From Escherichia phage vB_EcoS_XY1, in the sequence record NC_073325.1: a stretch of 45,566 nucleotides of DNA; one strand, given 5' to 3'. The position numbers and the translations under genes are program-made. The notes below the pieces were generated by a model, which saw only the letters and a program-made list of their open reading frames with translations, was not told where the DNA came from and did no database searches. Position 1 is the stretch's first letter, and the number at the start of each line of letters is the position of its first letter. This document shows, in pieces, positions 2,940 through 37,492 of this stretch.

Positions 2940-3295
2940 AATTCAATCTCCGTGTACGTGTCTCTGAGGTCCGCCAGCCTGTCAAGCCGTACCTGGCGGG
3001 ATGCAAGCTCGCAATGACTCACCATCCCGTCGAAGTAAACTCCCGCATGCCACACGATACGACCCCCGCGGCGATAACCCATAAGCACCGCGCAGAAGTT
3101 TTCAGGCTTATCAATTTTTGTAAGCCCCTTCGTGTCACGGCGGCCTTCGTCAAACGCTTCGTTAATTGCCGTTGGGCTTGTAACGTCGAACGCAGGGGTT
3201 TCTAACCCGGCATCCGCGCGGACAATGCGCACGTGATGCCAGCAATTGCGTTTGCGAAAGTCGTAAGGTATGCCCGTGTAGTCGTTAATATTCAT
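2930..3295 (-). CDS. Tail assembly protein with NlpC/P60-like motifs (gpK-like)
   Basis: 121 aa; candidate catalytic Cys in NCWHH and His in VWHAGVY; sits in the distal tail gene block. Confidence 0.45.
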   Translation of the reverse strand: MNINDYTGIPYDFRKRNCWHHVRIVRADAGLETPAFDVTSPTAINEAFDEGRRDTKGLTKIDKPENFCAVLMGYRRGGRIVWHAGVYFDGMVSHCELASRQVRLDRLADLRDTYTEIEFWR

Positions 3296-3807
3296 GTGGT
3301 CAACAGGCCGCGTAATAACGGTATCTCTTTAGGTGTCATCAGTATACCAGTGCTTCGTTGGTTCAGCATAGGTGTACCGACATCTGCGGAAAACTCGCCT
3401 TTCTCCTGATTGATGGCCTGTAACTCGTACACGACAGGGCCGTCCGCAGGATAAGACAGGTCGGTGCCGACGTAACGGCGGAATACAAACTTCGGCAACT
3501 CGGTGTTACTCATCGGGATTTTATCCATCTCATCATCAAGTTGATTGAGAATATCCGGTAGTGTAAACGTCGTCGTCTGGTCCATATCGCTGTTGTTAGC
3601 GGCCCCGGACGCCTCCATCGGGGTGGGTTCGAATGTGATAGTTTCGCCGGTTTCCAGTGTCGCCGTAAGTTCCTGTAGCCCACGAACAAGATAGTACGTC
3701 TTTGACAACAACGGGTGGCTGATTTGCAACGTGATGTAGTCTATCTCGCCGTCGGGATTTGATGCCAACTTACGGCGATAGGCAGCTTCTACTGATTCCT
3801 GACTCAT
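3292..3807 (-). CDS. Minor tail protein
   Basis: 171-aa ORF with start/stop overlap to its neighbours in the tail block; no motif recognised. Confidence 0.4.
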   Translation of the reverse strand: MSQESVEAAYRRKLASNPDGEIDYITLQISHPLLSKTYYLVRGLQELTATLETGETITFEPTPMEASGAANNSDMDQTTTFTLPDILNQLDDEMDKIPMSNTELPKFVFRRYVGTDLSYPADGPVVYELQAINQEKGEFSADVGTPMLNQRSTGILMTPKEIPLLRGLLTT

Positions 3808-3810
3808 AAG

Positions 3811-5211
3811 TTAGCCGTCCACATTAAAATCAATACGAGTGATATATTTACTACCCCACGCAGAATCGGCCTGAGGGATAGTCGCGTAATCATCTACAGC
3901 CTGAACGTTTATCACGGAGCCGTCGGAATAGGTGATGTCGATACTTGTCGCGCCGTTCATTACTACTTTTGCCGATGGCGCTGGGCGTGTTACAGGAGAC
4001 GCCGACGTAATTATTGGTGATGTTGTATTTTGGTTTACCTCTACAGTAGCCGCGGATAATTTAATCCCTGAAACGCCATCCCCCGTAAAGGATCCGGTAA
4101 CTCCGTCTGAATATATCCATGCGTCCATCCGTATGCTCATTGTTTTATCTTCTGTCGCGGTGATCGTCTCCGATATTCGGAACCACCCTCCGCCTACGTC
4201 GGTTACATCTGTACCGCCTGGGCCGGAATAAATGCTACCATCCCGCAAATCAACAACTGCCGAGCCTAATACTGTAGGAAGTTCTCGCACGTACATCCGT
4301 ATGAAATTGTATCCGTTTGCTTTTGCGAAGAAACTAAAAGTAACCATGTCGCCAACACCAACGCTAACATCTACAGTCTGGTTTATTAGGTGGTTACCGC
4401 TTGCGGCGGTAGCAGTTACGTCGTACGTGCCAGCGGCTGTTAAAACACCTGTTTCAGATACTGATACACTCACCAAACCTTTGTTCCAGTTTGACGAAGA
4501 GAAATTGCTTGAATATAGGAATCTGTTAGTTACTGATACCTCTGGTGGCACGCGCCCGGCGGCAACCCCGTCAATAAACGTAAGAGGCCATTCATTGGCG
4601 GCGGACTGTACAAGATTACCATTGCGGTTGATGTAATAAACCTGCGGCCCCTCATACACAATGCGGCTATCAAGAGTCGACGCCAGAAGGTTAATCGGCG
4701 GATACCCGGCGGGGCCTTCATTGCTCCAGATGCGAGGGAACGTCGTCTCATAGTTCGCGTATATTTTCAGGAAACTACCCAGACAATCCCCGTAACAACC
4801 GTACAAATCTGGAAGATTGTTAATCAGGCACTGGTTCTCAAGGTCCTGGAACGGAGATTTCTCCGCGGTTGCCGTGAAAGTAATCGTCCAGTTAATCCCG
4901 TCTTCTGTGGATTCCGCGATGGTTGACGTAATGGTTACCTGATAATCCTCGATACCCATGCCGAAGTCGTGCGCCATCCAGAAACTTGACGCACCGCCAT
5001 CGACTTTCTCAAGGAACGACAGGAACGCCTGCCGCCCTAGTGCTGAGGTAATCAGGGTTACGCTTATTGGGAACACGTCGTAATACGTGTCGCGCCCCTG
5101 GCGCACTCCGCCGCCAGCTAAATCAACGCTCCAGACGTTGTTACGTCGGGTCATTGAGTAGCCTTTCGACACCACCGGCTTTAAACTTGCTGGAAATTTC
5201 AAAGAAGACAT
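3811..5211 (-). CDS. Minor tail / distal tail protein
   Basis: 466 aa, first gene after the tape measure on this strand; AGGAG SD; Ser/Thr/Gly-rich beta-type composition. Confidence 0.45.
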   Translation of the reverse strand: MSSLKFPASLKPVVSKGYSMTRRNNVWSVDLAGGGVRQGRDTYYDVFPISVTLITSALGRQAFLSFLEKVDGGASSFWMAHDFGMGIEDYQVTITSTIAESTEDGINWTITFTATAEKSPFQDLENQCLINNLPDLYGCYGDCLGSFLKIYANYETTFPRIWSNEGPAGYPPINLLASTLDSRIVYEGPQVYYINRNGNLVQSAANEWPLTFIDGVAAGRVPPEVSVTNRFLYSSNFSSSNWNKGLVSVSVSETGVLTAAGTYDVTATAASGNHLINQTVDVSVGVGDMVTFSFFAKANGYNFIRMYVRELPTVLGSAVVDLRDGSIYSGPGGTDVTDVGGGWFRISETITATEDKTMSIRMDAWIYSDGVTGSFTGDGVSGIKLSAATVEVNQNTTSPIITSASPVTRPAPSAKVVMNGATSIDITYSDGSVINVQAVDDYATIPQADSAWGSKYITRIDFNVDG

Positions 5212-5246
5212 GGCAAGATACTCCTATTAGTTTAGGAGATACTAAC

Positions 5247-5897
5247 ATGATGCCAACCGAAAAAGTAGCCAAGAGCATGTGGCTGCGTGCGAATTATCCT
5301 GCGAACAAAAGCAGCAAAACTAAGCGTGCAACTATATGCGATTTTGGCATAAATGACGCCGATTATGTGGTTAGCCCCAAGATAAACGGCAACCGTGAGA
5401 CGTGTCTGGCGTACGCTACATGGCGAGGGATGATCCAACGTTGCGTGGACGCCGAGTATAAAAACAAAAGGCCTGCGTACAGGGATGTAACTGTGTGGCA
5501 TGGGTGGCAAAGGTTTATGTCCTTCCGTAGATGGTGGCTTTGTAATTATGTGGAGGGATGGGAGCTAGATAAGGATATATTCTCTGGTATTAATAAGGTA
5601 TACAGCCCTACCACTTGCATCTTCATCCCTAAATGGCTGAATGTTTTCCTAAAGGAAAAGAAAAATAGGGGAACACCTACGGGTGTTTTTTATGAAGAAT
5701 CTAGAGGTAAATTTAAAGCCTCAGTGAGCTATGATAAAAAAACTATTAATCTAGGACGTTTTGAAACTCAGGAAGAAGCGCTAGATGCTTACATTGCTGA
5801 AAAGATAAGGGTGGCGGAATCAAGAAGATGTGAGATAGAGGCGATAAGGGAAGGTATGTTCGACCGCGTTATCGCCTTGATAAAAGAGGGTCGTTAG
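5247..5897 (+). CDS. Homing-endonuclease-like protein (HNH-associated family with AP2-type DNA-binding domain)
   Basis: AGGAGA SD 7 nt before ATG; motifs YATWRGMIQRC, WELDKDIFSGINKVYSPTTCIFIP and AP2-like INLGRFETQEEALDAYIAE; opposite strand to the flanking tail genes. Confidence 0.45.
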   Translation: MMPTEKVAKSMWLRANYPANKSSKTKRATICDFGINDADYVVSPKINGNRETCLAYATWRGMIQRCVDAEYKNKRPAYRDVTVWHGWQRFMSFRRWWLCNYVEGWELDKDIFSGINKVYSPTTCIFIPKWLNVFLKEKKNRGTPTGVFYEESRGKFKASVSYDKKTINLGRFETQEEALDAYIAEKIRVAESRRCEIEAIREGMFDRVIALIKEGR

Positions 5898-5913
5898 CCC
5901 AGAGGCTGGAGAA

Positions 5914-5933
5914 ATAAGGCCCTTTCGGGCCTT
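5914..5933. terminator. Stem-loop terminator between the endonuclease-like gene and the tape measure gene
   Basis: AAGGCCC-TTTC-GGGCCTT hairpin followed by TTATGTTA. Confidence 0.5.
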
Positions 5934-5940
5934 TATGTTA

Positions 5941-8280
5941 TTACTTAAAGCCAGGTGCGTTTCTTGTAGCCTTCCTCGCTTTCGATATTTTGCTGTTGCT
6001 GTTCTGTAGCGAAGCAGCCACCTGCTCTTCTATGATGATGCGCAAACGGCCTTCGTCATCCTGCTCGGTAGATACGTTGCCAATCTGACTCGATGTGTTA
6101 TTTACAATGGTAACATTAGATGGGCCAGAAGAAGACCCATTTTGCCCCATAATTTCTTTCATCTGCTGCGCAGTTCGTACGCGCGATGCACCAGCAGGCA
6201 TGATAACTTCTGGTTTACCGCGTTCGGCGATGGTGGAAGCCTGCCCTGCGGATAACTGTCCGCCCTGCTCACGAGCGGACCTGATAGCGGAAATCTGCGC
6301 CATACCCGCCCCGACGGCAGCGGCAGCGGCTACAGGGGCCAGGAACGGGCCGACTACAGGGATAGCCGCCGTTGATTTATACGCCTCAATAGCTGCGGTG
6401 TACGTGGCAATAGTGGCCTGTACGATAGCGAATGCCTTATACGCGCCAGAAGCCTCACCCAACGCAGACCCGATGTTTGAGGCCATGTTGCCAAAGGCCG
6501 TTGCCGTTGCGTCGGCGCGCTTCGTAGCATACTGCTCATTGATAGCGTTAAGCGCCGCCTGATACTGTTTCTCGCTAATCAAACCCTGCTCGCGGTACTT
6601 ATCCGCTACCGCCAGTTTCTGCTGTTCCTGGATGTCGAGAAGCTCAAGCTCGGTGGCATTCTGACCCATAATCTGGGCCATGAAGTCTTCACCTTTCTGG
6701 TTCTTTTCCTGCCGTTCTTTCTCTCGCTTGGCGAGTTCTTCCTGTCGTGCGGTGTCAGCTTCCAGCATAATTTGAGTTTTGGCGTTCTCGTATTGCTGGT
6801 CGCTAAGAAGCTGGTTGCCGTAAAACTCTTGTAGCTTGGTTAACTGTTGCTCCTGATTAGCTTCTATTTTCTGGAATACATCATCATTGAGATGAATAGA
6901 CTGGTAGTAGAAATCCTCAGCGGCTTTCTTCTGGCGCTCGAACGCATCCGCGGCTTTCTTAGCGGCTTTTGCCCCCGCGCTATCATCCTCGGACCCGCCA
7001 CCAGTACCGGTTACCTTAAATTTACTAAGCCCTTCTGCCTTAGCGGCTTCTTTGTCGATGTCATATGCCGCGCGTTTAAGCGCGACGATATTTTGCTGAG
7101 CCTCCACCTGTTCGCGGAAACTTTTACGGGTCAGGTCCGCAACATCACGCTGAGTATCCAGTGCCATACCCAGCTGGAAGTTAATGTTTTTTGCTACGTC
7201 TACCGATTCACCTGGTGTGAAGGCTGCTTTCACCAACCGGCCAGCATCCTGCGCCCCTTTAACCATATCTTCAAAGAAACGCTCCATCGCGGTAAATTCT
7301 TCCGCGATGAAATCTAGCGCATCGGCGGCTGATTCTGCGATGGTTGTCGCCGTTTGTTCACCGCTATCGGTGATACTTTTACTGCTAAAATCCCAGAGTT
7401 CATTCAGCCCGTTTATCGCGTCGCCTACGAAACCAAATGCCGCGTCGAACGACATCTCTATCGCGCTTCCTACTTCCGACGCGATGTCACCCCACATACG
7501 CATCTCTGCGGCAAGTTCACCGGATGCAACCTGTGCGTTAAGTTCCTGGATTAAATCATCGATGTACCGGATAGGTTCCGCAAGAGCACCAACATCAAGG
7601 CTGGTAGCCAGTGTCATTTTTAACTGCGACCAGGAATCGCTGGCACTGGCGATAGCCCCATTAAGCGTGTTAGCCTGGTCCGCCATAGCCCCAGCGAAGT
7701 TTACGTTACCAATGTTGAGCAGGTATTGCTCGATATCGGCAGCGCTCTTCTTAACCACCGTAGTAGTGCCCTGGAATGTAAATTCAACATCGTCTTTGTT
7801 CTGCTTAGCCTTGATGCCGAATTCTTTAAGGCGCTCAAATTCAAACGTACTGGCGTCCGCAACGGCCTCAATCATCTGATTTAGGTCTTTACCCATAGCA
7901 GCGGCGGTGTTGCCATAGGAGCGCAACGCTTCTTCTGATGGTGTAAGACCAAGCGCCACAAGTTTACGGAATCCCTCTACTGCCTGTTCAAGACCATACG
8001 GAGTGTCGCGCGCGAAGTCTTGCAGGATGCTTAATGCCTGTCTTGCCCCCTGCGTGCTTCCGGTTAGTGTTTTCAGGCTGGCGGACATCTTATCCAGTTG
8101 CCGTTGGGAGTCTACTAGTTCCTGTGCGGCCTTGTACGCGGTAGCAGCGACGATGGAAGCGAGGCCCGCTACCGCGGCCCCGGCTACCTTTGCGGACTTG
8201 GAAAGGTTATCAAGACGGTCTGAGGTAGCTTTCGCGCCTTGCTCTGATACTTTTACAACTAAACTAGCTACATCAGCCAT
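5941..8280 (-). CDS. Tail tape measure protein
   Basis: 779 aa, Ala/Gln/Glu-rich coiled-coil composition, immediately after the G/GT chaperone pair. Confidence 0.85.
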   Translation of the reverse strand: MADVASLVVKVSEQGAKATSDRLDNLSKSAKVAGAAVAGLASIVAATAYKAAQELVDSQRQLDKMSASLKTLTGSTQGARQALSILQDFARDTPYGLEQAVEGFRKLVALGLTPSEEALRSYGNTAAAMGKDLNQMIEAVADASTFEFERLKEFGIKAKQNKDDVEFTFQGTTTVVKKSAADIEQYLLNIGNVNFAGAMADQANTLNGAIASASDSWSQLKMTLATSLDVGALAEPIRYIDDLIQELNAQVASGELAAEMRMWGDIASEVGSAIEMSFDAAFGFVGDAINGLNELWDFSSKSITDSGEQTATTIAESAADALDFIAEEFTAMERFFEDMVKGAQDAGRLVKAAFTPGESVDVAKNINFQLGMALDTQRDVADLTRKSFREQVEAQQNIVALKRAAYDIDKEAAKAEGLSKFKVTGTGGGSEDDSAGAKAAKKAADAFERQKKAAEDFYYQSIHLNDDVFQKIEANQEQQLTKLQEFYGNQLLSDQQYENAKTQIMLEADTARQEELAKREKERQEKNQKGEDFMAQIMGQNATELELLDIQEQQKLAVADKYREQGLISEKQYQAALNAINEQYATKRADATATAFGNMASNIGSALGEASGAYKAFAIVQATIATYTAAIEAYKSTAAIPVVGPFLAPVAAAAAVGAGMAQISAIRSAREQGGQLSAGQASTIAERGKPEVIMPAGASRVRTAQQMKEIMGQNGSSSGPSNVTIVNNTSSQIGNVSTEQDDEGRLRIIIEEQVAASLQNSNSKISKARKATRNAPGFK

Positions 8281-9231: not shown

Positions 9232-9423
9232 ATGACAGGTATTACTATGTTCTTCTTAATCATTATCGTTTTAGTTTATTTTATCCCATTTCTCGTGGCG
9301 CATATGCGCAACCATAAAGCTAAATTAGCGATATTCATGGCTAATCTGTTTCTCGGTTGGGTTCTGCTGCCGTGGGTATTTATTTTAATCTGGGCGTGCA
9401 ACTCGAATGTCAAAGAGAAGTGA
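9232..9423 (+). CDS. Small membrane protein, superinfection-immunity (Imm) -like
   Basis: 63 aa with two hydrophobic helices; NLFLGW..W...IWA-type motif as in the Imm_superinfect family; AGGAG SD. Confidence 0.45.
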   Translation: MTGITMFFLIIIVLVYFIPFLVAHMRNHKAKLAIFMANLFLGWVLLPWVFILIWACNSNVKEK

Positions 9424-9461
9424 GCTAGTATAGGACAAATCCTAAACACGAGGAAGTAAGC

Positions 9462-10616
9462 ATGGCCCAGAAGAAAATAACCGACGAACAGTTACAGGAA
9501 GAATTGAACGCCGGGATGAAGATTATTGATATCGCCCGTAAATACGGCATCTCAGACCGCGTTATTCGTATCCGTAAAGCGAAGCTGGCTAAGAAAGGTG
9601 TAGGCCACGGGCGTGACGTTAGTCACCTTGTACCGGACGGCTACAAGATTAAAGGAACGTCGTCTCTGGTTGATGAGTTAGGCAACACTAAACTGCAATG
9701 GGTTAAGACCGACACCGATGCGGAACGTCAGGTCGAGTTAATGAAAGCCGTTGTGGACGAGATGAAAAAAGATTTACCCAAGTATAAGCCAGTCACTTTG
9801 GCCAAAAATGGGACAGATGACGACTTATTAAATCTTTACACAATAACAGACCATCACATAGGGATGTTGGCGTGTCAAGAAGAAGGCGGGGATGATTACG
9901 ACACCACAATCGCGGAATCTCTCGCGGTTGACTGGTTCAACAGTGCGGTTTGTATGAGTCCACAGAGTGGTGAATGTATCATTAACTTCTTAGGGGACCA
10001 AATGCACTACGACGGCATGAAGGCAATGACCCCTATGAGCGGTCATATTCTTTCAGCGGATAGTCGCCTGTTTAAAATGATACGCACGGCCATTAAGGTT
10101 ATCAAGCTGGCTGTCTCACTGTGCTTGCGAAAACACAAGAAGGTTAAACTTCTTATCTGTGAAGGTAACCACGACCTTAGTTCTTCTCTGTGGCTCCGGG
10201 AGATGTTCTACGAGGTATACACAAATGAGCCTCGCGTCGAGGTTAACCGGGAGGTGTCACCGTATTATGCGTACAAGTTCGGGGATTGTATGATTTCAGC
10301 ACATCACGGGCATTGTTCTAACTTTGCTAAGGTAGAGCAGGCTATAATCGGTAAGTACCGGGAGATGTACGGGCGGTGTAAGTTCACATATGTCCATACG
10401 GGGCACCTCCATCACAGGGCGGTTAAAGAGACTAATCTGCTAATTGTTGAGCAACACCAGACATTAGCGGCTAAAGATGAGTATTCTAGTAAGGGCGGCT
10501 ATTATTCAGGTAGAAGCGCAAATGTGATTACATACCACAAACGTTACGGGGAGGTGTCCCGCATAAGTATACCTGTCGAAATGCTGCGAGACATAAACCC
10601 AAAATCGACATACTAA
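9462..10616 (+). CDS. HTH domain fused to a calcineurin-like metallophosphoesterase
   Basis: N-terminal HTH (IIDIARKYGISDRVIR); metallophosphoesterase-like motifs TDHHIG, LGDQMHYDG, EGNHD, HHGH, TGHLHH. Confidence 0.45.
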   Translation: MAQKKITDEQLQEELNAGMKIIDIARKYGISDRVIRIRKAKLAKKGVGHGRDVSHLVPDGYKIKGTSSLVDELGNTKLQWVKTDTDAERQVELMKAVVDEMKKDLPKYKPVTLAKNGTDDDLLNLYTITDHHIGMLACQEEGGDDYDTTIAESLAVDWFNSAVCMSPQSGECIINFLGDQMHYDGMKAMTPMSGHILSADSRLFKMIRTAIKVIKLAVSLCLRKHKKVKLLICEGNHDLSSSLWLREMFYEVYTNEPRVEVNREVSPYYAYKFGDCMISAHHGHCSNFAKVEQAIIGKYREMYGRCKFTYVHTGHLHHRAVKETNLLIVEQHQTLAAKDEYSSKGGYYSGRSANVITYHKRYGEVSRISIPVEMLRDINPKSTY

Positions 10617-10631
10617 AATATAGGTGAAAGT

Positions 10632-11195
10632 ATGGATTGGAGTGAGGTTTTTAGCTACAAAAATGGCGTCCTATACTGGAAAGTCAAATCATGTCGCCGT
10701 AACGATGTGAATACAGGTGATGTGGCCGGGAGTTTGTGTAAAAACGGCTATTGGTATGTCATGTTTGGTAACCGTAAGTTTAAAAGGTCGAGGGTGGTGT
10801 ATGAGATGTTCAGTACGCTGTATGACAATGAGCCGCGTGTGTTCGTCGATACGTCACCGGATGTTTACAAGATGGTGCAACACGGCAAAACGACGCTGTT
10901 CTTCCATCACGGGCATAAAGCACGATTCGACGCTATCGAACCGGTTATGATTGCCAAGTTTCGTAAAGCGTTCGGCGAGAGTGTTTACAGCTACGCCCAC
11001 GTAGGCCACCTGCACCATCAGAAGATTGTAGAAAGCCGTAACATGATTGTTGAGCAACACCGCACCTTAGCGGCTAAAGATGCCTACGCCTCCCGCGGCG
11101 GTTGGATGTCGGGCCGTAGTGCAAATGTAATTACTTATAGCGCCGAATATGGCGAGGTCGCACGTTTAACTATTTCACCGGAGATGCTTGGATGA
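10632..11195 (+). CDS. Chimeric paralog: homing-endonuclease-type N-terminal DNA-binding region fused to a duplicate of the C-terminal ~100 aa of 9462-10616
   Basis: N-terminus NGVLYWKV...GDVAGS...NGYWYV...RSRVVY follows the pattern that precedes the catalytic motif in phage HNH endonucleases; C-terminus HHGH...HVGHLHH...IVEQHRTLAAKD...GRSANVITY is clearly homologous to the end of the upstream gene. Confidence 0.4.
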   Translation: MDWSEVFSYKNGVLYWKVKSCRRNDVNTGDVAGSLCKNGYWYVMFGNRKFKRSRVVYEMFSTLYDNEPRVFVDTSPDVYKMVQHGKTTLFFHHGHKARFDAIEPVMIAKFRKAFGESVYSYAHVGHLHHQKIVESRNMIVEQHRTLAAKDAYASRGGWMSGRSANVITYSAEYGEVARLTISPEMLG

Positions 11196-11680
11196 AAGAT
11201 ATTGTGATTTTCGATTTAGACGGGACATTGGCCGATGGTACTCATCGTTTACATCTGCTGCCGAAAGATAACTACGGCGAAACCTGGGCGTGGAAGCCTT
11301 TTAACATGGCCTGTAAAGATGATGCGCCGATATATGACAACATTCACTTGTGCAACACACTGTGGCATACCGGGATGACCATAATCATCCTTACCGGGCG
11401 CAGTGATGATGCTGAGGATGAGACCCGTAAATGGTTGCGAGAAAATAACGTTAAGTTTGACACGCTGATAATGCGCAGCAAACACGACAACAGAAAAGAC
11501 ATCGCAATTAAAGAAGAGGTGTTGCGTGCTATCGGGCTGGAGAGAATCTTGTGTGCGTTCGACGACTCTCCAGCGGTAATAAAGCATTTCCGTAACCTCG
11601 GCATAACCACTCACGCAGTTACCGAATACGACTGTAACGGGAACTCTACACACTTAAAATCACACGGGAGTGATAAATAA
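11192..11680 (+). CDS. HAD-superfamily phosphatase (nucleotidase or polynucleotide 3'-phosphatase-like)
   Basis: Motif I FDLDGTL, motif II ILTGR, downstream Lys and FDD motifs; ATGA start/stop overlap with upstream gene. Confidence 0.6.
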   Translation: MKDIVIFDLDGTLADGTHRLHLLPKDNYGETWAWKPFNMACKDDAPIYDNIHLCNTLWHTGMTIIILTGRSDDAEDETRKWLRENNVKFDTLIMRSKHDNRKDIAIKEEVLRAIGLERILCAFDDSPAVIKHFRNLGITTHAVTEYDCNGNSTHLKSHGSDK

Positions 11681-12249
11681 TGGCTAAGGTAATTATTCTT
11701 AATGGTCCTGCTGGTTGCGGGAAAGACACACTTGCTATGGCGCTGGTAGAAATGGGCTTTGCAAAAGGGACTACCAGTTTCAAGAATCCAATGTTCAATA
11801 TTGCGCTGGCGGCGTTAGGCCAGGATGCCTACCACGAGTTTCTCGACGGCTACGACGACCGTGCCCGGAAAGAAAAGCCAGAGGGTTTCCTTAATGGGTT
11901 GTCTCGGCGTCAGTTCATGATCGCCATTTCTGAGCAATTCATTAAACCAGTACTTGGTAGTGATTATTTCGGTAAGTATCTCGCTGAAAACTTGCCTGAC
12001 GGCGACGAAGTTTTTGTAGTGTCCGACGGTGGATTCGCCAGTGAAGTTGCCCCTATCGTCGCCGCAGGGCATGACGTGCGAATCGTCCGCCTCCATCGTG
12101 ACGGCTATACGTTCATCGGCGATAGCCGTGGCTATCTGTATGATATCGATGGTGCGGTATGTCATGACGTCGACGTCATTCCGGGCGAGATTACATTAAC
12201 AGCGGCCGCGATTGCTAATAGAATCCTGGGGATTTACCCAAATGCGTGA
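11680..12249 (+). CDS. P-loop kinase (dNMP kinase or polynucleotide kinase-like)
   Basis: Walker A GPAGCGKDT near the N-terminus, resembling phage dNMP kinase; start immediately after the HAD gene stop. Confidence 0.5.
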   Translation: MAKVIILNGPAGCGKDTLAMALVEMGFAKGTTSFKNPMFNIALAALGQDAYHEFLDGYDDRARKEKPEGFLNGLSRRQFMIAISEQFIKPVLGSDYFGKYLAENLPDGDEVFVVSDGGFASEVAPIVAAGHDVRIVRLHRDGYTFIGDSRGYLYDIDGAVCHDVDVIPGEITLTAAAIANRILGIYPNA

Positions 12250-12418
12250 ATGCACAACGGGGACAATATACGTTATCCGTGTATACGACGAAGAATGGGA
12301 CGAGTGGGTTGATATTTATGCCGTCGGTAGTAAGGAAGAGGCCTCTAAAGAAATGACAGAACGAAGTGACCGAGGCCAGTTAACTAACTTCTACGAAATG
12401 CCATTCAAAAGTGAGTAA
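12242..12418 (+). CDS. Hypothetical small acidic protein
   Basis: ATG at 12242 overlapping the upstream stop (track ORF 12212-12418 trimmed to the ATG). Confidence 0.3.
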   Translation: MRECTTGTIYVIRVYDEEWDEWVDIYAVGSKEEASKEMTERSDRGQLTNFYEMPFKSE

Positions 12419-12419
12419 G

Positions 12420-12448
12420 AAAAGGCCCCGAAAGGGGCCTTAGTTTTA
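12420..12448. terminator. Bidirectional rho-independent terminator (identical copy at 42857-42885)
   Basis: AAAAGGCCCCGAAAGGGGCCTTAGTTTTA: GC stem with A/T runs on both sides, between convergent gene ends. Confidence 0.7.
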
Positions 12449-13618
12449 TGCGTAACTAATACGTTGAATTACGATAGACGACTGGTACTGGTTGCCTGTG
12501 GACTGTCCTTCTATACTTTGGGTAATTGATTCCGGGCCAGATATTTCTGGTGTAACAGCCGTAAGTTCTGCACGTTTCAAACTGAAAGACATAGCCCCGT
12601 TTACCCCCGCCAGAATAGAGTTAATCTCTACCTGCTGTTCATTGATGAACTTCTGAATCATCGCCATGTCGTACAGCTTACCGGAGATGGAGAAGGTGTT
12701 AGCGGCGCGGCTACGTTCCACAAACGCTACGTTAGTGTTGCCAAGTTCGAACTGTGCGGATGCGCTGTTATCGTTGGTGATTGTCAGGCTATCACAACGC
12801 AACGGCATAGAACCATCGAACACAGAAACGTCAACCGAAGAGAACGGCTCGTCACCAAACGTGACAGAGGAGAAATCAGAACCCGTCGGCGGCGTGGTGA
12901 GAATCTCCTGGCTGCGCCCGATGAACGGGAAACTGCCAGTTACCATCGCATTAACGGCCTGCTCGACAGTGAAACCGGAAACTTCCACACCTTTAGTCAG
13001 CGTGTACGCGTCAGCCCCGCCACACTGCCCTTTGTACCACGTGAGAATAGAGAACGTCTTGCACTGGCTTCCTGTTTCCAGTTTGTCGCCAGTCTTAGCG
13101 GCGGTAGTTACGGTCTCAGTGGTCAGAGTATGTTGGATACCAGCACCTGTAACAACAGATGCGCTTACCTCGGTTACGATAAACGGTTTGGCGTTATCAC
13201 CTGTTAAGTCGGTAAACGCAATCAGGTCGCCCACTTCAACGCCGTCGGTAATAAAGCTGCCATCAGCACGGGTGAACGTCTTGCCCGCCGGTGCGACGGT
13301 AATCGACAGCCCGGACAGAGAAACACCGGATTGCCACGTAGAACCTAAAGCCCCAGCCAGCCAGTCGTCCTGGCTTTTCGAACTAAGCTCAATAGCGTAT
13401 TCCCCGCTAACCTGCTTGTTACCGGTGCGGATGGACGTAGTTTCACGACTGCCGTCCAGTTCGTTGGATGTCAGTGTGTCACGGGTAATGGCGGGAACAC
13501 CGCCCGTGTTACGTAATGGTGACCATACCGGGTTAGTCGGTGTTACGCCCGGGGTCACTTCCGCCACATAGAATTGCGCGGTATTCGCGCCCTTAAAAGG
13601 AGTTGTAGCCATATTCAC
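12446..13618 (-). CDS. Major tail protein (tail tube), putative
   Basis: 390 aa, Thr/Ser/Gly-rich; last structural gene before the chaperones (separated by the plus-strand cassette); ends in a strong terminator. Confidence 0.45.
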   Translation of the reverse strand: MNMATTPFKGANTAQFYVAEVTPGVTPTNPVWSPLRNTGGVPAITRDTLTSNELDGSRETTSIRTGNKQVSGEYAIELSSKSQDDWLAGALGSTWQSGVSLSGLSITVAPAGKTFTRADGSFITDGVEVGDLIAFTDLTGDNAKPFIVTEVSASVVTGAGIQHTLTTETVTTAAKTGDKLETGSQCKTFSILTWYKGQCGGADAYTLTKGVEVSGFTVEQAVNAMVTGSFPFIGRSQEILTTPPTGSDFSSVTFGDEPFSSVDVSVFDGSMPLRCDSLTITNDNSASAQFELGNTNVAFVERSRAANTFSISGKLYDMAMIQKFINEQQVEINSILAGVNGAMSFSLKRAELTAVTPEISGPESITQSIEGQSTGNQYQSSIVIQRISYA

Positions 13619-26284: not shown

Positions 26285-26770
26285 TCATTTAACAGCCCTC
26301 CCGATAGCCTCAGCCTCTTGCCACGGTTTACCGTCGAACAGCGCCAGACGTCCGGCTGTACGGCGACGCAGGCCGAGTAACGGTTTGCCGTTCTGGTTGA
26401 TGAACAGCGCCAGCTTAGCCCGCAGCGTCGGAATATCACCGTAACGCAGAGCCTTACCCGTGCCCGTAGTAGACGCAATCACGCCAGCGCCCGCGTTATA
26501 GACCAGGTCGCAAACAGCATCAAACTGCGCCTGCGTCAGTGAATGGTGTGCCGCTGCATCAACCGCAGCTACAGCCTTAGCCATATCGCGATTCAGTAAC
26601 AGCAAGCCCTGTCCTGGTGTGATGGTCTTACCTGGTGTTACGTCCGGCCCGTAGTGGCCGTAGCCTATGGTAAGGTACTTCTCATTCGGCGTAGCGCGAT
26701 ACGCAGTTCCACGGAACCCCTCGAATGCGGCGGTAAAATGCAATCCATTATCTGAAATATTTCGAGACAC
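26285..26770 (-). CDS. Endolysin, phage lysozyme-like (GH24-type)
   Basis: N-terminal FEGFRGTAYR...YLTIGYGH lysozyme motif; directly downstream of two holin-like genes. Confidence 0.75.
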   Translation of the reverse strand: MSRNISDNGLHFTAAFEGFRGTAYRATPNEKYLTIGYGHYGPDVTPGKTITPGQGLLLLNRDMAKAVAAVDAAAHHSLTQAQFDAVCDLVYNAGAGVIASTTGTGKALRYGDIPTLRAKLALFINQNGKPLLGLRRRTAGRLALFDGKPWQEAEAIGRAVK

Positions 26771-27020
26771 GCTTATGCCCTCCGTATGACAGCCACGCCT
26801 GACGAATCTGGCGCAGCGCGACTAATGTGATTAATGTCTCAGGCAGCGTTGGCGACATGCTGCCATGTAACAGGTGGATGCATCCGGCAGCGCAGACGAT
26901 AGCAGTCAGGATATAGAGCACCCGACCAAATAATCCGTCGTCCACGCAGGGGTGATACACATTAAACAGCGATGCGCCCCCGATTGCCAGCATACCGCCG
27001 AACCAGAATAGCTCATTCAT
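26748..27020 (-). CDS. Holin or antiholin (second small membrane protein of the lysis cassette)
   Basis: 90 aa with two hydrophobic helices; overlaps both neighbours. Confidence 0.45.
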   Translation of the reverse strand: MNELFWFGGMLAIGGASLFNVYHPCVDDGLFGRVLYILTAIVCAAGCIHLLHGSMSPTLPETLITLVALRQIRQAWLSYGGHKRVSKYFR

Positions 27021-27321
27021 CCGGGCCTCCTCGACGTGAGATGTATTCCCCGGCGACGATACCGGATAGACGGGAATAAATAGGCATCCAGAGAATTGCG
27101 ATGATGAATCCCAGGCCAGCTATCTCTCGCTCGCCGGTGATACCGAACCATTGCGCTGCAAGAGGCGCACCGAATACGGCGCAGGTGAAGCCGGTAGCGA
27201 TAAAGCAGAAGCCATCAATAGGGCCAGAAATAACGGACTTATGTTGCCGTAGGCCGATTACCCCTCCGGCTAGTGCGGCAGCGAGAAGCCACCCCGTCAC
27301 TGTTTCAGTAAATTTATCCAA
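27013..27321 (-). CDS. Holin
   Basis: 102 aa with multiple hydrophobic helices and a charged C-terminus; first gene of the lysis cassette. Confidence 0.55.
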   Translation of the reverse strand: MDKFTETVTGWLLAAALAGGVIGLRQHKSVISGPIDGFCFIATGFTCAVFGAPLAAQWFGITGEREIAGLGFIIAILWMPIYSRLSGIVAGEYISRRGGPDE

Positions 27322-27396: not shown

Positions 27397-27690
27397 TTAT
27401 TTATGTCTCCAGATGTATTGTCGTCTCTGTGGTTTCGTCGGGATATCATCGTATCCCAGCGATTTCCAGTAATTAAATAACCGATTAGAGATTGCAGCGC
27501 GTTCCTGTGTTTTAAACTCACCGAGGTTTACGGCCTTCCCGTTCTGGAATCCACAGGCGCGGACAGCTTTACGCCGCTCTTGTATCTCAGGGAACAGTGC
27601 GTTACGGCGACGCTTGTGTATACGTGTCTTCGCTCTCGGTGACAGCGGCGCAAGGCCGCTTCGTTTCAGGATGTCAGTTGCGAGGCTCAT
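27397..27690 (-). CDS. Small basic protein with AP2-like DNA-binding motif
   Basis: NGKAVNLGEFKTQERAAISNRL resembles the AP2 motif also present in the 5247-5897 protein. Confidence 0.35.
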   Translation of the reverse strand: MSLATDILKRSGLAPLSPRAKTRIHKRRRNALFPEIQERRKAVRACGFQNGKAVNLGEFKTQERAAISNRLFNYWKSLGYDDIPTKPQRRQYIWRHK

Positions 27691-36865: not shown

Positions 36866-37492
36866 ATGGGCATTAAACTGAATCTGCGTAAAGTAAACAC
36901 TGCATGGGTTAACGTATTCGAACGCGAAAAAGACCGTGAAAACGACGACGGCTCAATCACTAAAGGCCAGTACAGCGCAACTATCATCCTGCCGACTGAC
37001 CATGCTCAAATCGATGCGCTGTACGACACTGTTTACGCTGTAGTTGAAGAAGCATTAGGTGCAGCTGCTGCCGAGAAGTGGATGAAGTCAAACTACGGCG
37101 AAGGCAAGCATATGGATAAATGCGCTATTAAAGACATTGCTGAGCGCGACAATCCGTTTGAAGACTTCCCGGAAGGCTTCTACTTCAAAGCGAAAGCACA
37201 GAAACAGCCGCTGATTGTAACCTCTAAAAAAGGTGAGACTCAGGTGGAGCAGGACTTCAACGTAGACGGTGAACAGATTGAAGGTGAACAGGTTTACAGC
37301 GGCTGCGTCGCTAACGTAAGCGTCGAAATCTGGTTCAGCCAGAAATATAAAGTACTCGGCGTTAACCTGCTGGCGATTAAATACGTCGGAGAAGGTAAAG
37401 CGTTTGGAGGCTCTAAAGTTGCTGCAAGCGTCGACGACCTGGAAGACGACGAAGAAGATGAAGCACCGCGCCGCGAACGTCGCCGCCGTTAA
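36866..37492 (+). CDS. Single-stranded DNA-binding protein (T7 gp2.5-like)
   Basis: 208 aa with an acidic C-terminal tail DDLEDDEEDE; sits between nuclease and polymerase genes. Confidence 0.5.
   Translation: MGIKLNLRKVNTAWVNVFEREKDRENDDGSITKGQYSATIILPTDHAQIDALYDTVYAVVEEALGAAAAEKWMKSNYGEGKHMDKCAIKDIAERDNPFEDFPEGFYFKAKAQKQPLIVTSKKGETQVEQDFNVDGEQIEGEQVYSGCVANVSVEIWFSQKYKVLGVNLLAIKYVGEGKAFGGSKVAASVDDLEDDEEDEAPRRERRRR

What the first reader, a model, noticed from the sequence alone, without database searches (positions are those of the whole stretch)
5247..5897. Free-standing homing-endonuclease-like gene inserted antisense between the tape measure and distal tail genes
Seen: a 217-codon gene on the plus strand interrupts the minus-strand tail operon. 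Its AGGAGA SD sits back-to-back with the AGGAG SD of the divergent tail gene, only 35 bp separating the two start codons, and it ends in a hairpin (5914-5933). Motifs YATWRGMIQRC, WELDKDIF...YSPTTCIF and an AP2-like INLGRFETQEEALDAY place it in the phage HNH-associated/AP2 endonuclease family. An AP2-like motif recurs in 27397-27690 and the endonuclease-type N-terminus recurs in 10632-11195, so this genome carries several related mobile-element modules. Inference: tail operon transcription must run antisense through this gene, so it is probably a recent selfish insertion and marks a recombination hotspot next to the host-range genes.
Basis: partly seen in the sequence, partly recalled or inferred. 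Interest (0 to 1): 0.5.

Follow-up and report, generated by a model that had tools for sequence, protein, structure and literature searches.

The report
Selfish endonuclease gene in tail operon
This is a real, intact, mobile "homing endonuclease" gene of an already described phage family (IPA-HNH), wedged backwards between two tail genes of an E. coli Kagunavirus; it is an ordinary kind of selfish element, though its nuclease domain lacks the usual catalytic histidine.

Summary
A 216-codon ORF (5247-5897, +) lies antisense between the tape measure gene (5941-8280, -) and the distal tail gene (3811-5211, -). It has back-to-back Shine-Dalgarno sites, 35 nt between the start codons, and a 7-bp GC hairpin (5916-5933).

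The window is a Kagunavirus (Guernseyvirinae) coliphage. Of 495 related phage records that match the flanks, only four phages carry the insert. In the others the tape measure stop overlaps the tail gene start (TAATG).

The insert is 97-100% identical among carriers whose flanks are 63-95% identical. It comes with replaced flanks: 15 synonymous changes in the last 63 nt of the tape measure gene, and 8 altered first codons of the tail gene. Homologues down to 56% identity occupy the same junction, in the same orientation, in four much more divergent metagenomic phages. dN/dS is 0.06-0.26.

Verdict: an ordinary free-standing homing endonuclease gene, a new member of a known kind. The insertion is recent in these isolates, but the tie to this site is old.

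The parts
5247..5897 (+). Homing endonuclease gene of the IPA-HNH family: 216 aa plus stop. N-terminal putative His-less beta-beta-alpha nuclease domain (aa ~30-135); C-terminal AP2 DNA-binding domain (aa ~142-185) followed by helices.
5560..5645 (+). Codons for the predicted beta-beta-alpha core. Strand aa 105-108 ends in the invariant D108-K109-D110. The loop carries invariant Y119-S120-P121. Then strand 125-128 and helix 129-135 with invariant N132.
5670..5801 (+). AP2-type DNA-binding domain: three-stranded sheet (aa 147-172) plus helix (from aa 175).
5212..5246 (.). 35-nt divergent control region carried by the insert. It holds AGGAGA (5234-5239) for the endonuclease gene and, on the other strand, AGGAG (5221-5225) giving the tail gene its own ribosome-binding site. 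That site replaces the translational coupling lost on insertion.
   Evidence: Direct reading. Absent from empty sites and present in all carriers.
5182..5211 (-). First 10 codons of the distal tail gene in the donor-type version (MSSLKFPASLKP, against MSDLYFPRSLKP at empty sites). This is the co-converted left flank. It is the most conserved 30 nt across four divergent cassettes, so it may hold the -35/spacer of the endonuclease promoter (inference).
5916..5933 (.). GC-rich hairpin AAGGCCC-UUUC-GGGCCUU between the convergent stop codons. It is terminator-like for the endonuclease transcript, with a weaker U-tract on the tail-operon strand.
   Evidence: Analogous hairpins occur in L015, L017 and L018.
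5941..6003 (-). Last 20 codons plus stop of the tape measure gene, in the carrier-type synonymous version. The peptide is unchanged (…SKISKARKATRNAPGFK*). There are 15 nt differences from empty-site alleles, including TCG/AGC and AGG/CGC codon-family swaps. This is the co-converted right flank and probably destroys the recognition site.
3811..5211 (-). Distal tail / virion structural gene downstream of the insertion (466-aa long form). Context, not part of the element beyond its first ~10 codons.
5941..8280 (-). Tape measure protein gene upstream of the insertion (779 aa). Context, not part of the element beyond its last ~17 codons.

Best explanation
The ORF is a functional, free-standing, site-specific homing endonuclease gene of the IPA-HNH family. 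[quoted passage not shown]

Proposed mechanism:
- During co-infection with a relative whose tape measure/tail-gene junction is empty, the protein binds that junction through its AP2 domain.
- Its N-terminal beta-beta-alpha-metal-type domain cuts the DNA there.
- Repair from the carrier genome copies in a ~760-bp cassette.

The cassette consists of:
- a hairpin terminator;
- the antisense endonuclease gene;
- a 35-nt two-way ribosome-binding region that lets the tail gene be translated on its own;
- ~30 nt and ~50 nt of replaced flanks, which keep both tail proteins functional but differ from the empty-site sequence and so protect carriers from cleavage.

Shown:
- gene intactness and purifying selection;
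- family membership;
- the AP2 fold;
- presence/absence polymorphism;
- the same cassette in divergent backgrounds;
- the altered flanks;
- fidelity to one site over deep divergence.

Inferred:
- DNA cleavage itself;
- the position of the target site;
- the chemistry (no catalytic His, so possibly Lys109 or Tyr119 as in PacI);
- how the gene is transcribed.
For: 1. Family. PHROG 953 'HNH endonuclease' at E 8e-64. ICP1 gp59, a founding IPA-HNH member (PMC10448857), matches my full-length profile at E 1e-37 and my N-domain profile at E 6e-27, with the same LDKD...Y.PE.C...N motif.

3. Nuclease-like N-domain.
- The AlphaFold model has pLDDT 92 and a beta-beta-alpha motif at aa 105-135.
- D108, K109, D110, Y119 and N132 are invariant in 218 of 218 homologues.
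- PacI is the documented case of a His-Me finger nuclease without the His, in which a loop tyrosine takes its role (PMC5714182).

4. Mobility.
- The insert is present in 4 phages out of 495 records that match the flanks.
- Empty sites have the overlapping TAATG.
- The insert is 97-100% identical among carriers whose flanks are 63-95% identical. For example, fEg-Eco19 has a tape measure protein only 59% identical.
- fEg-Eco19 (with the gene) and UTI89UKE1 (without it) are ~95% identical on both sides.

5. Flank replacement. There are 15 differences in the last 63 nt of the tape measure gene against 48-56 in the preceding 600 nt (Fisher p 3e-4 and 2e-3), all synonymous. The carrier-type block occurs at >=93% identity in only 5 records (4 phages), 3 of which carry the HEG.

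6. Site specificity. Homologues at 80, 67, 60 and 56% identity are at the same junction, antisense, each with a hairpin. A 41% homologue is elsewhere.

7. Selection. dN/dS is 0.06-0.07 against L015 and 0.19-0.26 among close carriers, and the ORF is intact in all of them.
Against: - No nuclease activity has been shown for any member of this family in what I could read. PMC10448857 infers it from HHsearch and from the gene architecture.
- No Pfam or NCBIfam HNH hit. No precomputed HNH domain in the ~220 homologues listed.
- hhalign of the N-domain profile against a canonical HNH_3 alignment found nothing (probability 0.2).
- The profile search against PDB sequences found no nuclease.
- The canonical general-base His is absent.
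- The carrier-type tape measure block also exists in one genome without the gene (UTI89UKE1). It may therefore simply be the native allele of one tape measure lineage rather than a selected immunity change.
- No convincing sigma-70 promoter for the gene was found in the window.
Confidence: 0.8

Rival explanations
1. It is a domesticated DNA-binding protein rather than an active nuclease. The His-less fold would have lost catalysis, as the Smad MH1 domain has. The AP2 protein would be kept because it regulates something, for example tail-operon or early/late transcription, or because it excludes competitors by binding alone. Its patchy distribution would reflect ordinary mosaic exchange of an accessory gene.
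For: - There is no catalytic His in any of the 218 homologues.
- There is no sequence-level link to HNH models.
- His-Me finger groups lacking both the His and an equivalent Tyr are considered inactive (PMC5714182).
- Strong purifying selection and long residence at one locus, in one orientation, across deep divergence look more like a useful gene than a decaying parasite.
Against: - Ten polar residues are invariant in a ~100-aa domain, including a D-K-D / Y / N set placed on a beta-beta-alpha motif. That is typical of an active site.
- PacI shows that a His-less member can be active.
- The nearly identical cassette with replaced flanks in backbones that differ greatly is the signature of break-induced gene conversion.
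- The family is multi-copy and dispersed in many phages: 2490 places in 1423 records, up to 6 per genome.
Confidence: 0.12
2. It is an active nuclease whose main role is not its own homing. Instead it would exclude or degrade co-infecting relatives or satellites, acting as a phage-phage competition weapon. Its spread would be a by-product of the selective advantage it gives the carrier genome.
For: - Endonuclease-type genes and domains have been co-opted for phage-satellite conflict in ICP1 and coliphages (PMC10448857).
- The predicted target lies in an essential tail module of close relatives.
- Purifying selection is strong.
Against: This is not really exclusive of homing. Cutting the empty allele gives both marker exclusion and gene conversion. 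The precise, conserved insertion point and the co-converted flanks are what homing predicts. No satellite-related target was found.
Confidence: 0.06
3. It is a non-functional relic: a recently acquired, already inactive gene drifting towards loss.
For: Homing endonuclease genes commonly decay after fixation (PMC2248197). One genome (UTI89UKE1) appears to have lost or never gained the gene while keeping the carrier-type flank.
Against: The ORF is intact in all carriers, from 56% to 100% identity. dN/dS is 0.06-0.26. All family-invariant residues are retained.
Confidence: 0.02

Closest known systems
IPA-HNH homing endonuclease genes (ICP1 gp59, gp209; Barth, Dunham & Seed 2023, PMC10448857)
   Same: Same family by direct profile match (gp59 at E 1e-37). 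Same architecture: a divergent N-terminal putative HNH-like domain that escapes the Pfam HNH_3 model, plus a C-terminal AP2 domain. Free-standing, next to essential or structural genes, and at boundaries of genetic exchange.
   Different: gp59 is 272 aa, with an extra ~80-aa N-terminal extension, and sits beside the DNA polymerase gene. This member sits antisense at one specific tape measure/tail-gene junction of Guernseyvirinae. The paper does not mention the missing catalytic His or any recoding of target-site flanks.
Canonical HNN/HNH-AP2 homing endonucleases (Pfam HNH_3 + AP2; Magnani et al. 2004; Xanthomonas phages Xp10/OP1/Xop411, PMC2248197); structural prototype I-HmuI (1U3E)
   Same: Order of domains (nuclease, then AP2), free-standing phage genes, multi-copy, prone to degeneration.
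   Different: Those proteins have the conserved Asp/His pair and the DNR / NLRE / EN boxes, and are found by the HNH_3 model. This protein has none of these. It has D-K-D...YSP...N instead, and hhalign against an HNH_3 alignment was negative.
PacI restriction endonuclease (3M7K/3LDY), His-Me finger group 20
   Different: No detectable sequence similarity. PacI is a dimeric restriction enzyme without an AP2 domain. Equivalence of Tyr119 to the PacI tyrosine was not checked at the coordinate level.
T4 free-standing homing endonuclease genes (segB-G, mobE)
   Same: Intergenic, free-standing genes that spread by cleavage of the gene-less allele and co-conversion of flanking markers. Carrier alleles differ from the target at the cut or recognition site.
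   Different: Different nuclease families (GIY-YIG, canonical HNH). The T4 genes are mostly co-oriented with their neighbours, whereas this one is antisense within a late tail operon and carries a replacement ribosome-binding site for the downstream gene.

Membership tests
IPA-HNH homing endonuclease genes (PMC10448857) | Sequence homology to the founding members (ICP1 gp59 / gp209) | tested here: met
   The profile of this protein's family hits ICP1 gp59 at E 1e-37 (full length) and E 6e-27 (N-domain only). The alignment covers LDKDI...NKVYCPEYC...INSFL. gp115/116 matched only through AP2.
IPA-HNH homing endonuclease genes (PMC10448857) | C-terminal AP2 DNA-binding domain | tested here: met
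IPA-HNH homing endonuclease genes (PMC10448857) | N-terminal domain too divergent for the Pfam HNH_3 model but recognisable as HNH-like by more sensitive methods | tested here: inconclusive
Homing endonuclease gene (functional definition) | Presence/absence polymorphism at one defined site among close relatives, with an intact uninterrupted empty site | tested here: met
   Four carriers among 495 records. Empty sites have the TAATG overlap. fEg-Eco19 and UTI89UKE1 form a near-isogenic pair.
Homing endonuclease gene (functional definition) | The element is more similar between genomes than its flanks are, and flanking sequence is co-converted | tested here: met
   97-100% identity against 63-95% for the flanks. 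The protein is 80% identical to L015's, whereas tape measure, tail protein and DUF1833 protein are 47, 64 and 66% identical. Flank blocks are shared by the carriers.
Homing endonuclease gene (functional definition) | The protein cleaves the empty allele site-specifically, and the gene is inherited super-Mendelianly in crosses | not testable with these tools
   This requires an in vitro cleavage assay and mixed-infection crosses.
Canonical HNH / His-Me finger nuclease (Pfam HNH, HNH_3) | General-base histidine at the end of the first beta strand | tested here: not met
   The position is D108/K109. There is no His at 109 in 218 of 218 homologues, and no invariant His anywhere in the domain.
Canonical HNH / His-Me finger nuclease (Pfam HNH, HNH_3) | beta-beta-alpha fold with a metal-ligand Asn/His on the helix and an Asp next to the catalytic position | tested here: inconclusive
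PacI-like His-less His-Me finger (group 20, PMC5714182) | Tyrosine in the loop between the two strands substituting for the His | tested here: inconclusive

The most novel reading that the evidence does not exclude
The IPA-HNH N-terminal domain is an active beta-beta-alpha-metal nuclease that has permanently replaced the canonical general-base histidine. Its catalytic set would be the invariant Asp-Lys-Asp, with the loop Tyr119 and helix Asn132, working PacI-like through a Tyr nucleophile or with Lys as the general base. That would make it a catalytically distinct, very large class of homing endonucleases (more than 5000 sequence clusters) with no biochemical characterisation I could find. In addition, this lineage would travel as a self-contained 'operon patch' that carries its own terminator, promoter and a replacement ribosome-binding site for the gene it uncouples.
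Probability: 0.35. Interest if true: 0.55.

Novelty: new member of a known kind. Interest (0 to 1): 0.3.

Why it matters
This is a clean natural example of the full anatomy of a free-standing homing endonuclease cassette.
- It has a defined empty site, and carrier and empty genomes that are nearly isogenic.
- It has short co-conversion tracts.
- It has built-in compensation for breaking the translational coupling of two tail genes.

The predicted target (the last ~50 nt of the tape measure gene plus the first ~30 nt of the distal tail gene) can be tested directly.

It also points to something apparently not discussed for this family: the IPA-HNH nuclease domain never has the catalytic histidine. 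If these proteins cut DNA, their chemistry is unusual for homing endonucleases.

For phage engineering and phage therapy (Kagunaviruses are used against uropathogenic and K1 E. coli), such a gene can drive exchange of neighbouring tail and host-range modules during co-infection.

Tried and rejected
- Sequence links of the N-domain to known nucleases failed in every search:
  - Pfam and NCBIfam;
  - profile against PDB sequences, where the best hits were spurious deoxycytidine kinase matches at E ~0.08;
  - hhalign against an alignment of 30 HNH_3 proteins, probability 0.2.
- The sigma-70 promoter scan found no + strand site upstream of the gene. The one minus-strand site near the tail gene start (5256-5229, 9 of 12 matches) is at chance level: 4 sites found against 7.4 expected.
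- I looked for more copies of the family in the window with tblastn and two profile HMMs over all six-frame ORFs, and found none. A marginal hit at 36866-37492 turned out to be a Gp2.5-like ssDNA-binding protein.
- I considered an intron or intein. This is rejected because the insert lies between two complete genes, not within one.
- I considered 8-nt inverted repeats (GGCTTTAA / TTAAAGCC at 5177-5184 and 5946-5953) as element ends. This is rejected because they are not conserved in L015, L017 or L018.
- I considered the synonymous tape measure block as a selected 'immunity' recoding. This was weakened when the same block turned up in the gene-less phage UTI89UKE1, a close relative of carrier fEg-Eco19. 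Co-conversion from that tape measure lineage now seems at least as likely.

Full report
OBSERVATION

The ORF at 5247-5897 (+) is real. It lies between two minus-strand genes:
- 5941-8280, the tape measure protein (phrog_1538 at E 4e-207; Pfam TMP_3);
- 3811-5211, a 466-aa virion/tail protein (phrog_384, phrog_11600, phrog_5939).

The fine structure is as described:
- AGGAGA lies at 5234-5239.
- The reverse-strand AGGAG lies at 5221-5225.
- Exactly 35 nt separate the two start codons.
- A 7-bp GC-rich hairpin lies at 5916-5933. The scan flags it as terminator-like on the + strand, and it folds on both strands.

WHAT THE GENOME IS

The region is 99.5% identical to Escherichia phage vB_VIPECOTH07 and 85-95% identical to many Kagunavirus (Guernseyvirinae) coliphages.

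PRESENCE/ABSENCE

Using 4800-6400 as the query, 495 phage records match the flanks, but only 4 records cover at least 80% of the query. All sampled others span ~865-871 nt instead of 1601 nt, so they lack ~730 nt.

A tblastn search finds copies at 90% identity or more in only four phages: TH07, SHAK7693, fEg-Eco19 (two records) and Esher4, whose record starts inside the gene.

In empty genomes such as UTEC10, KMB36, Golestan and K1ind1, the tape measure stop overlaps the tail gene start (TAATG).

THE CASSETTE AND ITS FLANKS

Alignment of carriers with empty sites puts the insert at about 5188-5993.
- Left flank. The first eight codons of the tail gene differ: MSSLKFPA in carriers against MSDLYFPR at empty sites.
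- Right flank. The last 20 codons of the tape measure gene encode the identical peptide but differ at 15 of 63 nt. The changes include TCG/AGC and AGG/CGC codon-family swaps. The preceding 600 nt differ at only 48-56 positions (Fisher p 3e-4 and 2e-3).
- The carrier-type block occurs at 93% identity or more in only five records (four phages). Three of those phages carry the HEG.
- The exception is UTI89UKE1, which has no HEG. It is ~95% identical to the carrier fEg-Eco19 on both sides. It has a 45-nt spacer between the two genes and an empty-type tail gene start.

This exception shows that the block is probably the native 3' end of one tape measure lineage, carried along by co-conversion, rather than necessarily a selected immunity change. 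Either way, carriers differ from empty sites exactly at the junction.

The insert also supplies the tail gene with its own AGGAG site. This replaces the translational coupling that the insertion destroys.

MOBILITY

- Among carriers, the cassette is 97-100% identical while the flanks are 63-95% identical.
- fEg-Eco19 has a 97% identical endonuclease but a tape measure protein only 59% identical.
- Metagenomic homologues at 80, 67, 60 and 56% identity (L015, L021, L017, L018) all sit at the same junction, antisense, each followed by a GC hairpin. Their backbones have tape measure, tail and DUF1833 proteins only ~47, ~60 and ~65% identical to the window's.
- A 41% homologue lies in a different context, the nin region of an Aeromonas prophage.

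The lineage is therefore faithful to one site over long evolutionary distance. It is also more similar between genomes than its host backbone is. Both are expected of a site-specific homing element.

The gene is under purifying selection. dN/dS is 0.06-0.07 against L015, where dS is saturated at ~1.8, and 0.19-0.26 among close carriers.

The antisense layout is a stable feature, not a symptom of recency.

THE PROTEIN

N-terminal domain: sequence searches. No sequence method links this ~110-aa domain to any nuclease:
- no Pfam or NCBIfam hit;
- none of the ~220 homologues listed carries a precomputed HNH domain;
- the PDB sequence profile search gives nothing meaningful;
- hhalign against a canonical HNH_3 alignment, built from ICP1 gp80 relatives (which do match I-HmuI), gives probability 0.2.

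N-terminal domain: structure.
- The predicted fold has a beta-beta-alpha unit: strand 105-108, a loop, strand 125-128 and helix 129-135.
- Across 218 homologues, D108, K109, D110, Y119 and N132 are invariant and no histidine is conserved.
- PacI is the known His-Me finger nuclease that lacks the general-base histidine. A tyrosine in the loop between the strands substitutes for it (PMC5714182). Y119 lies in that loop.

I regard a His-less His-Me finger nuclease as the best reading (about 70%). The scores are modest, and I could not inspect the coordinates.

FAMILY

Barth, Dunham and Seed (2023, PMC10448857) defined the 'IPA-HNH' homing endonuclease genes from ICP1 gp59, gp115/116 and gp209. By their definition, the N-terminal domain is too divergent for the Pfam HNH_3 model but is detected by HHsearch, the C-terminal domain is AP2, and the genes are free-standing near essential genes at boundaries of genetic exchange.

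ICP1 gp59 matches my profiles at E 1e-37 (full length) and E 6e-27 (N-domain) with the same LDKD...Y.PE.C...N signature. This gene is therefore a member of that family. The family is very large, with 5324 clusters found using the N-domain profile.

Related observations:
- A second member lies antisense in the same tail operon of L018.
- A 36% paralogue occupies another site in some Kagunaviruses. That site is empty in this window.
- The paper does not discuss the missing histidine and reports no biochemistry for this family.
- GenBank already annotates the TH07 and SHAK7693 copies as 'HNH endonuclease'.

EXPRESSION (INFERENCE ONLY)

No convincing sigma-70 promoter precedes the gene in the window.

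Across the four divergent cassettes, the most conserved 30 nt are 5182-5211. These are the first ten codons of the tail gene read on the opposite strand, 36-65 nt upstream of the endonuclease ATG. They are 87% invariant, against 17-67% within the coding sequence. L017 and L018 have a perfect TATAAT 31-36 nt upstream of the ATG. The promoter may therefore be embedded in the co-converted left flank.

The hairpin has a better U-tract on the + strand in the window. In the distant relatives it is followed by a T-run on the tail-operon strand as well. Whether tail transcripts read through it is unknown.

- 27397-27690 shares only a 29-aa AP2-core-like stretch with this protein.
- 10632-11195 is unrelated to this protein, but it is interesting in itself. 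A ~1.05-kb foreign segment (9750-10801) has entered the metallophosphoesterase ('DNA repair exonuclease') gene. The result is a hybrid full-length gene, followed by an ORF that fuses a ~56-aa fragment of a different HNH-type gene (phrog_99) to the displaced native C-terminus.
- The window holds a single IPA-HNH copy.

RECOMBINATION HOTSPOT

Breakpoints of similarity lie at ~4765 (the window and TH07 differ in the C-terminal extension of the tail protein) and at ~6794 (against fEg-Eco19). This agrees with the thesis of PMC10448857. I did not compare it with the background density of mosaic joints, so it remains an open inference.

VERDICT

This is a genuine, intact, site-specific free-standing homing endonuclease gene of the described IPA-HNH family, in a typical genomic setting.

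The finding is correct in substance but ordinary in kind. The modestly novel points are:
- the histidine-less, possibly PacI-like, catalytic domain;
- the well-resolved cassette anatomy, with three allelic states at the junction.

Noticed in passing
window 9462-11195 (foreign segment about 9750-10801): The metallophosphoesterase ('DNA repair exonuclease') gene has been invaded by ~1.05 kb of foreign DNA. It starts like its TH07 counterpart (97% nt identity to 9749). It continues as a divergent exonuclease (60% aa identity overall). It is followed by ORF 10632-11195, which fuses a ~56-aa fragment of a different HNH-type endonuclease (phrog_99, E 3e-13) to the displaced native exonuclease C-terminus (85% aa identity to TH07 aa 219-376). 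No phage record covers at least 80% of 9400-12500. This looks like the scar of another endonuclease-mediated gene conversion.
   Followed up: partly
L024 (MZ234048 UTI89UKE1) 1424-1500, corresponding to window 5182-5943: A third allele exists at the tape measure/tail-gene junction. This phage is ~95% identical to the carrier fEg-Eco19 on both sides but lacks the endonuclease gene. It has the carrier-type synonymous block at the tape measure 3' end. A 45-nt spacer follows, containing a remnant of the empty-type tape measure end (GGTTCAAATAATG). Its tail gene start is empty-type. It is either a loss or recombinant allele, or the ancestral state of the donor lineage.
   Followed up: partly
L018 2133-2759 (+); L006 (fFiEco03) 2971-3603 (+): Further IPA-HNH genes occur in relatives. 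One lies antisense between two other tail genes in the metagenomic phage L018 (E 8e-54 to the family profile). A 36%-identical paralogue lies next to the tail tube gene in several Kagunaviruses (E 5e-56). The corresponding site in the window (about 12250-12445) is empty.
   Followed up: partly
window 5182-5211: The first ten codons of the distal tail gene are conserved at the nucleotide level, synonymous sites included, across four cassettes. The endonuclease genes of those cassettes are only 56-80% identical at the protein level. L017 and L018 have a perfect TATAAT just downstream of this block on the + strand. It may be the endonuclease promoter or a binding site embedded in the flank.
   Followed up: partly
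window 3811-4764: The distal tail protein occurs in two forms among otherwise near-identical phages. The long form has 461-472 aa (this window, SHAK7693, UTEC10, Golestan, K1ind1). The short form has 164-166 aa (TH07, KMB36, fEg-Eco19). The window and TH07 are otherwise 99.5-100% identical but switch form at ~4765, which marks a module exchange ~450 nt from the endonuclease gene.
   Followed up: no
window 27397-27690 (-): A 97-aa protein of unknown function (phrog_9632, full-length match at E 1e-54) contains a short AP2-core-like stretch (NLGEFKTQERA). It may be a small AP2-type DNA-binding protein or a very old endonuclease remnant. It lies near the lysis genes (holin at 27013-27321, endolysin at 26285-26770).
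   Followed up: no
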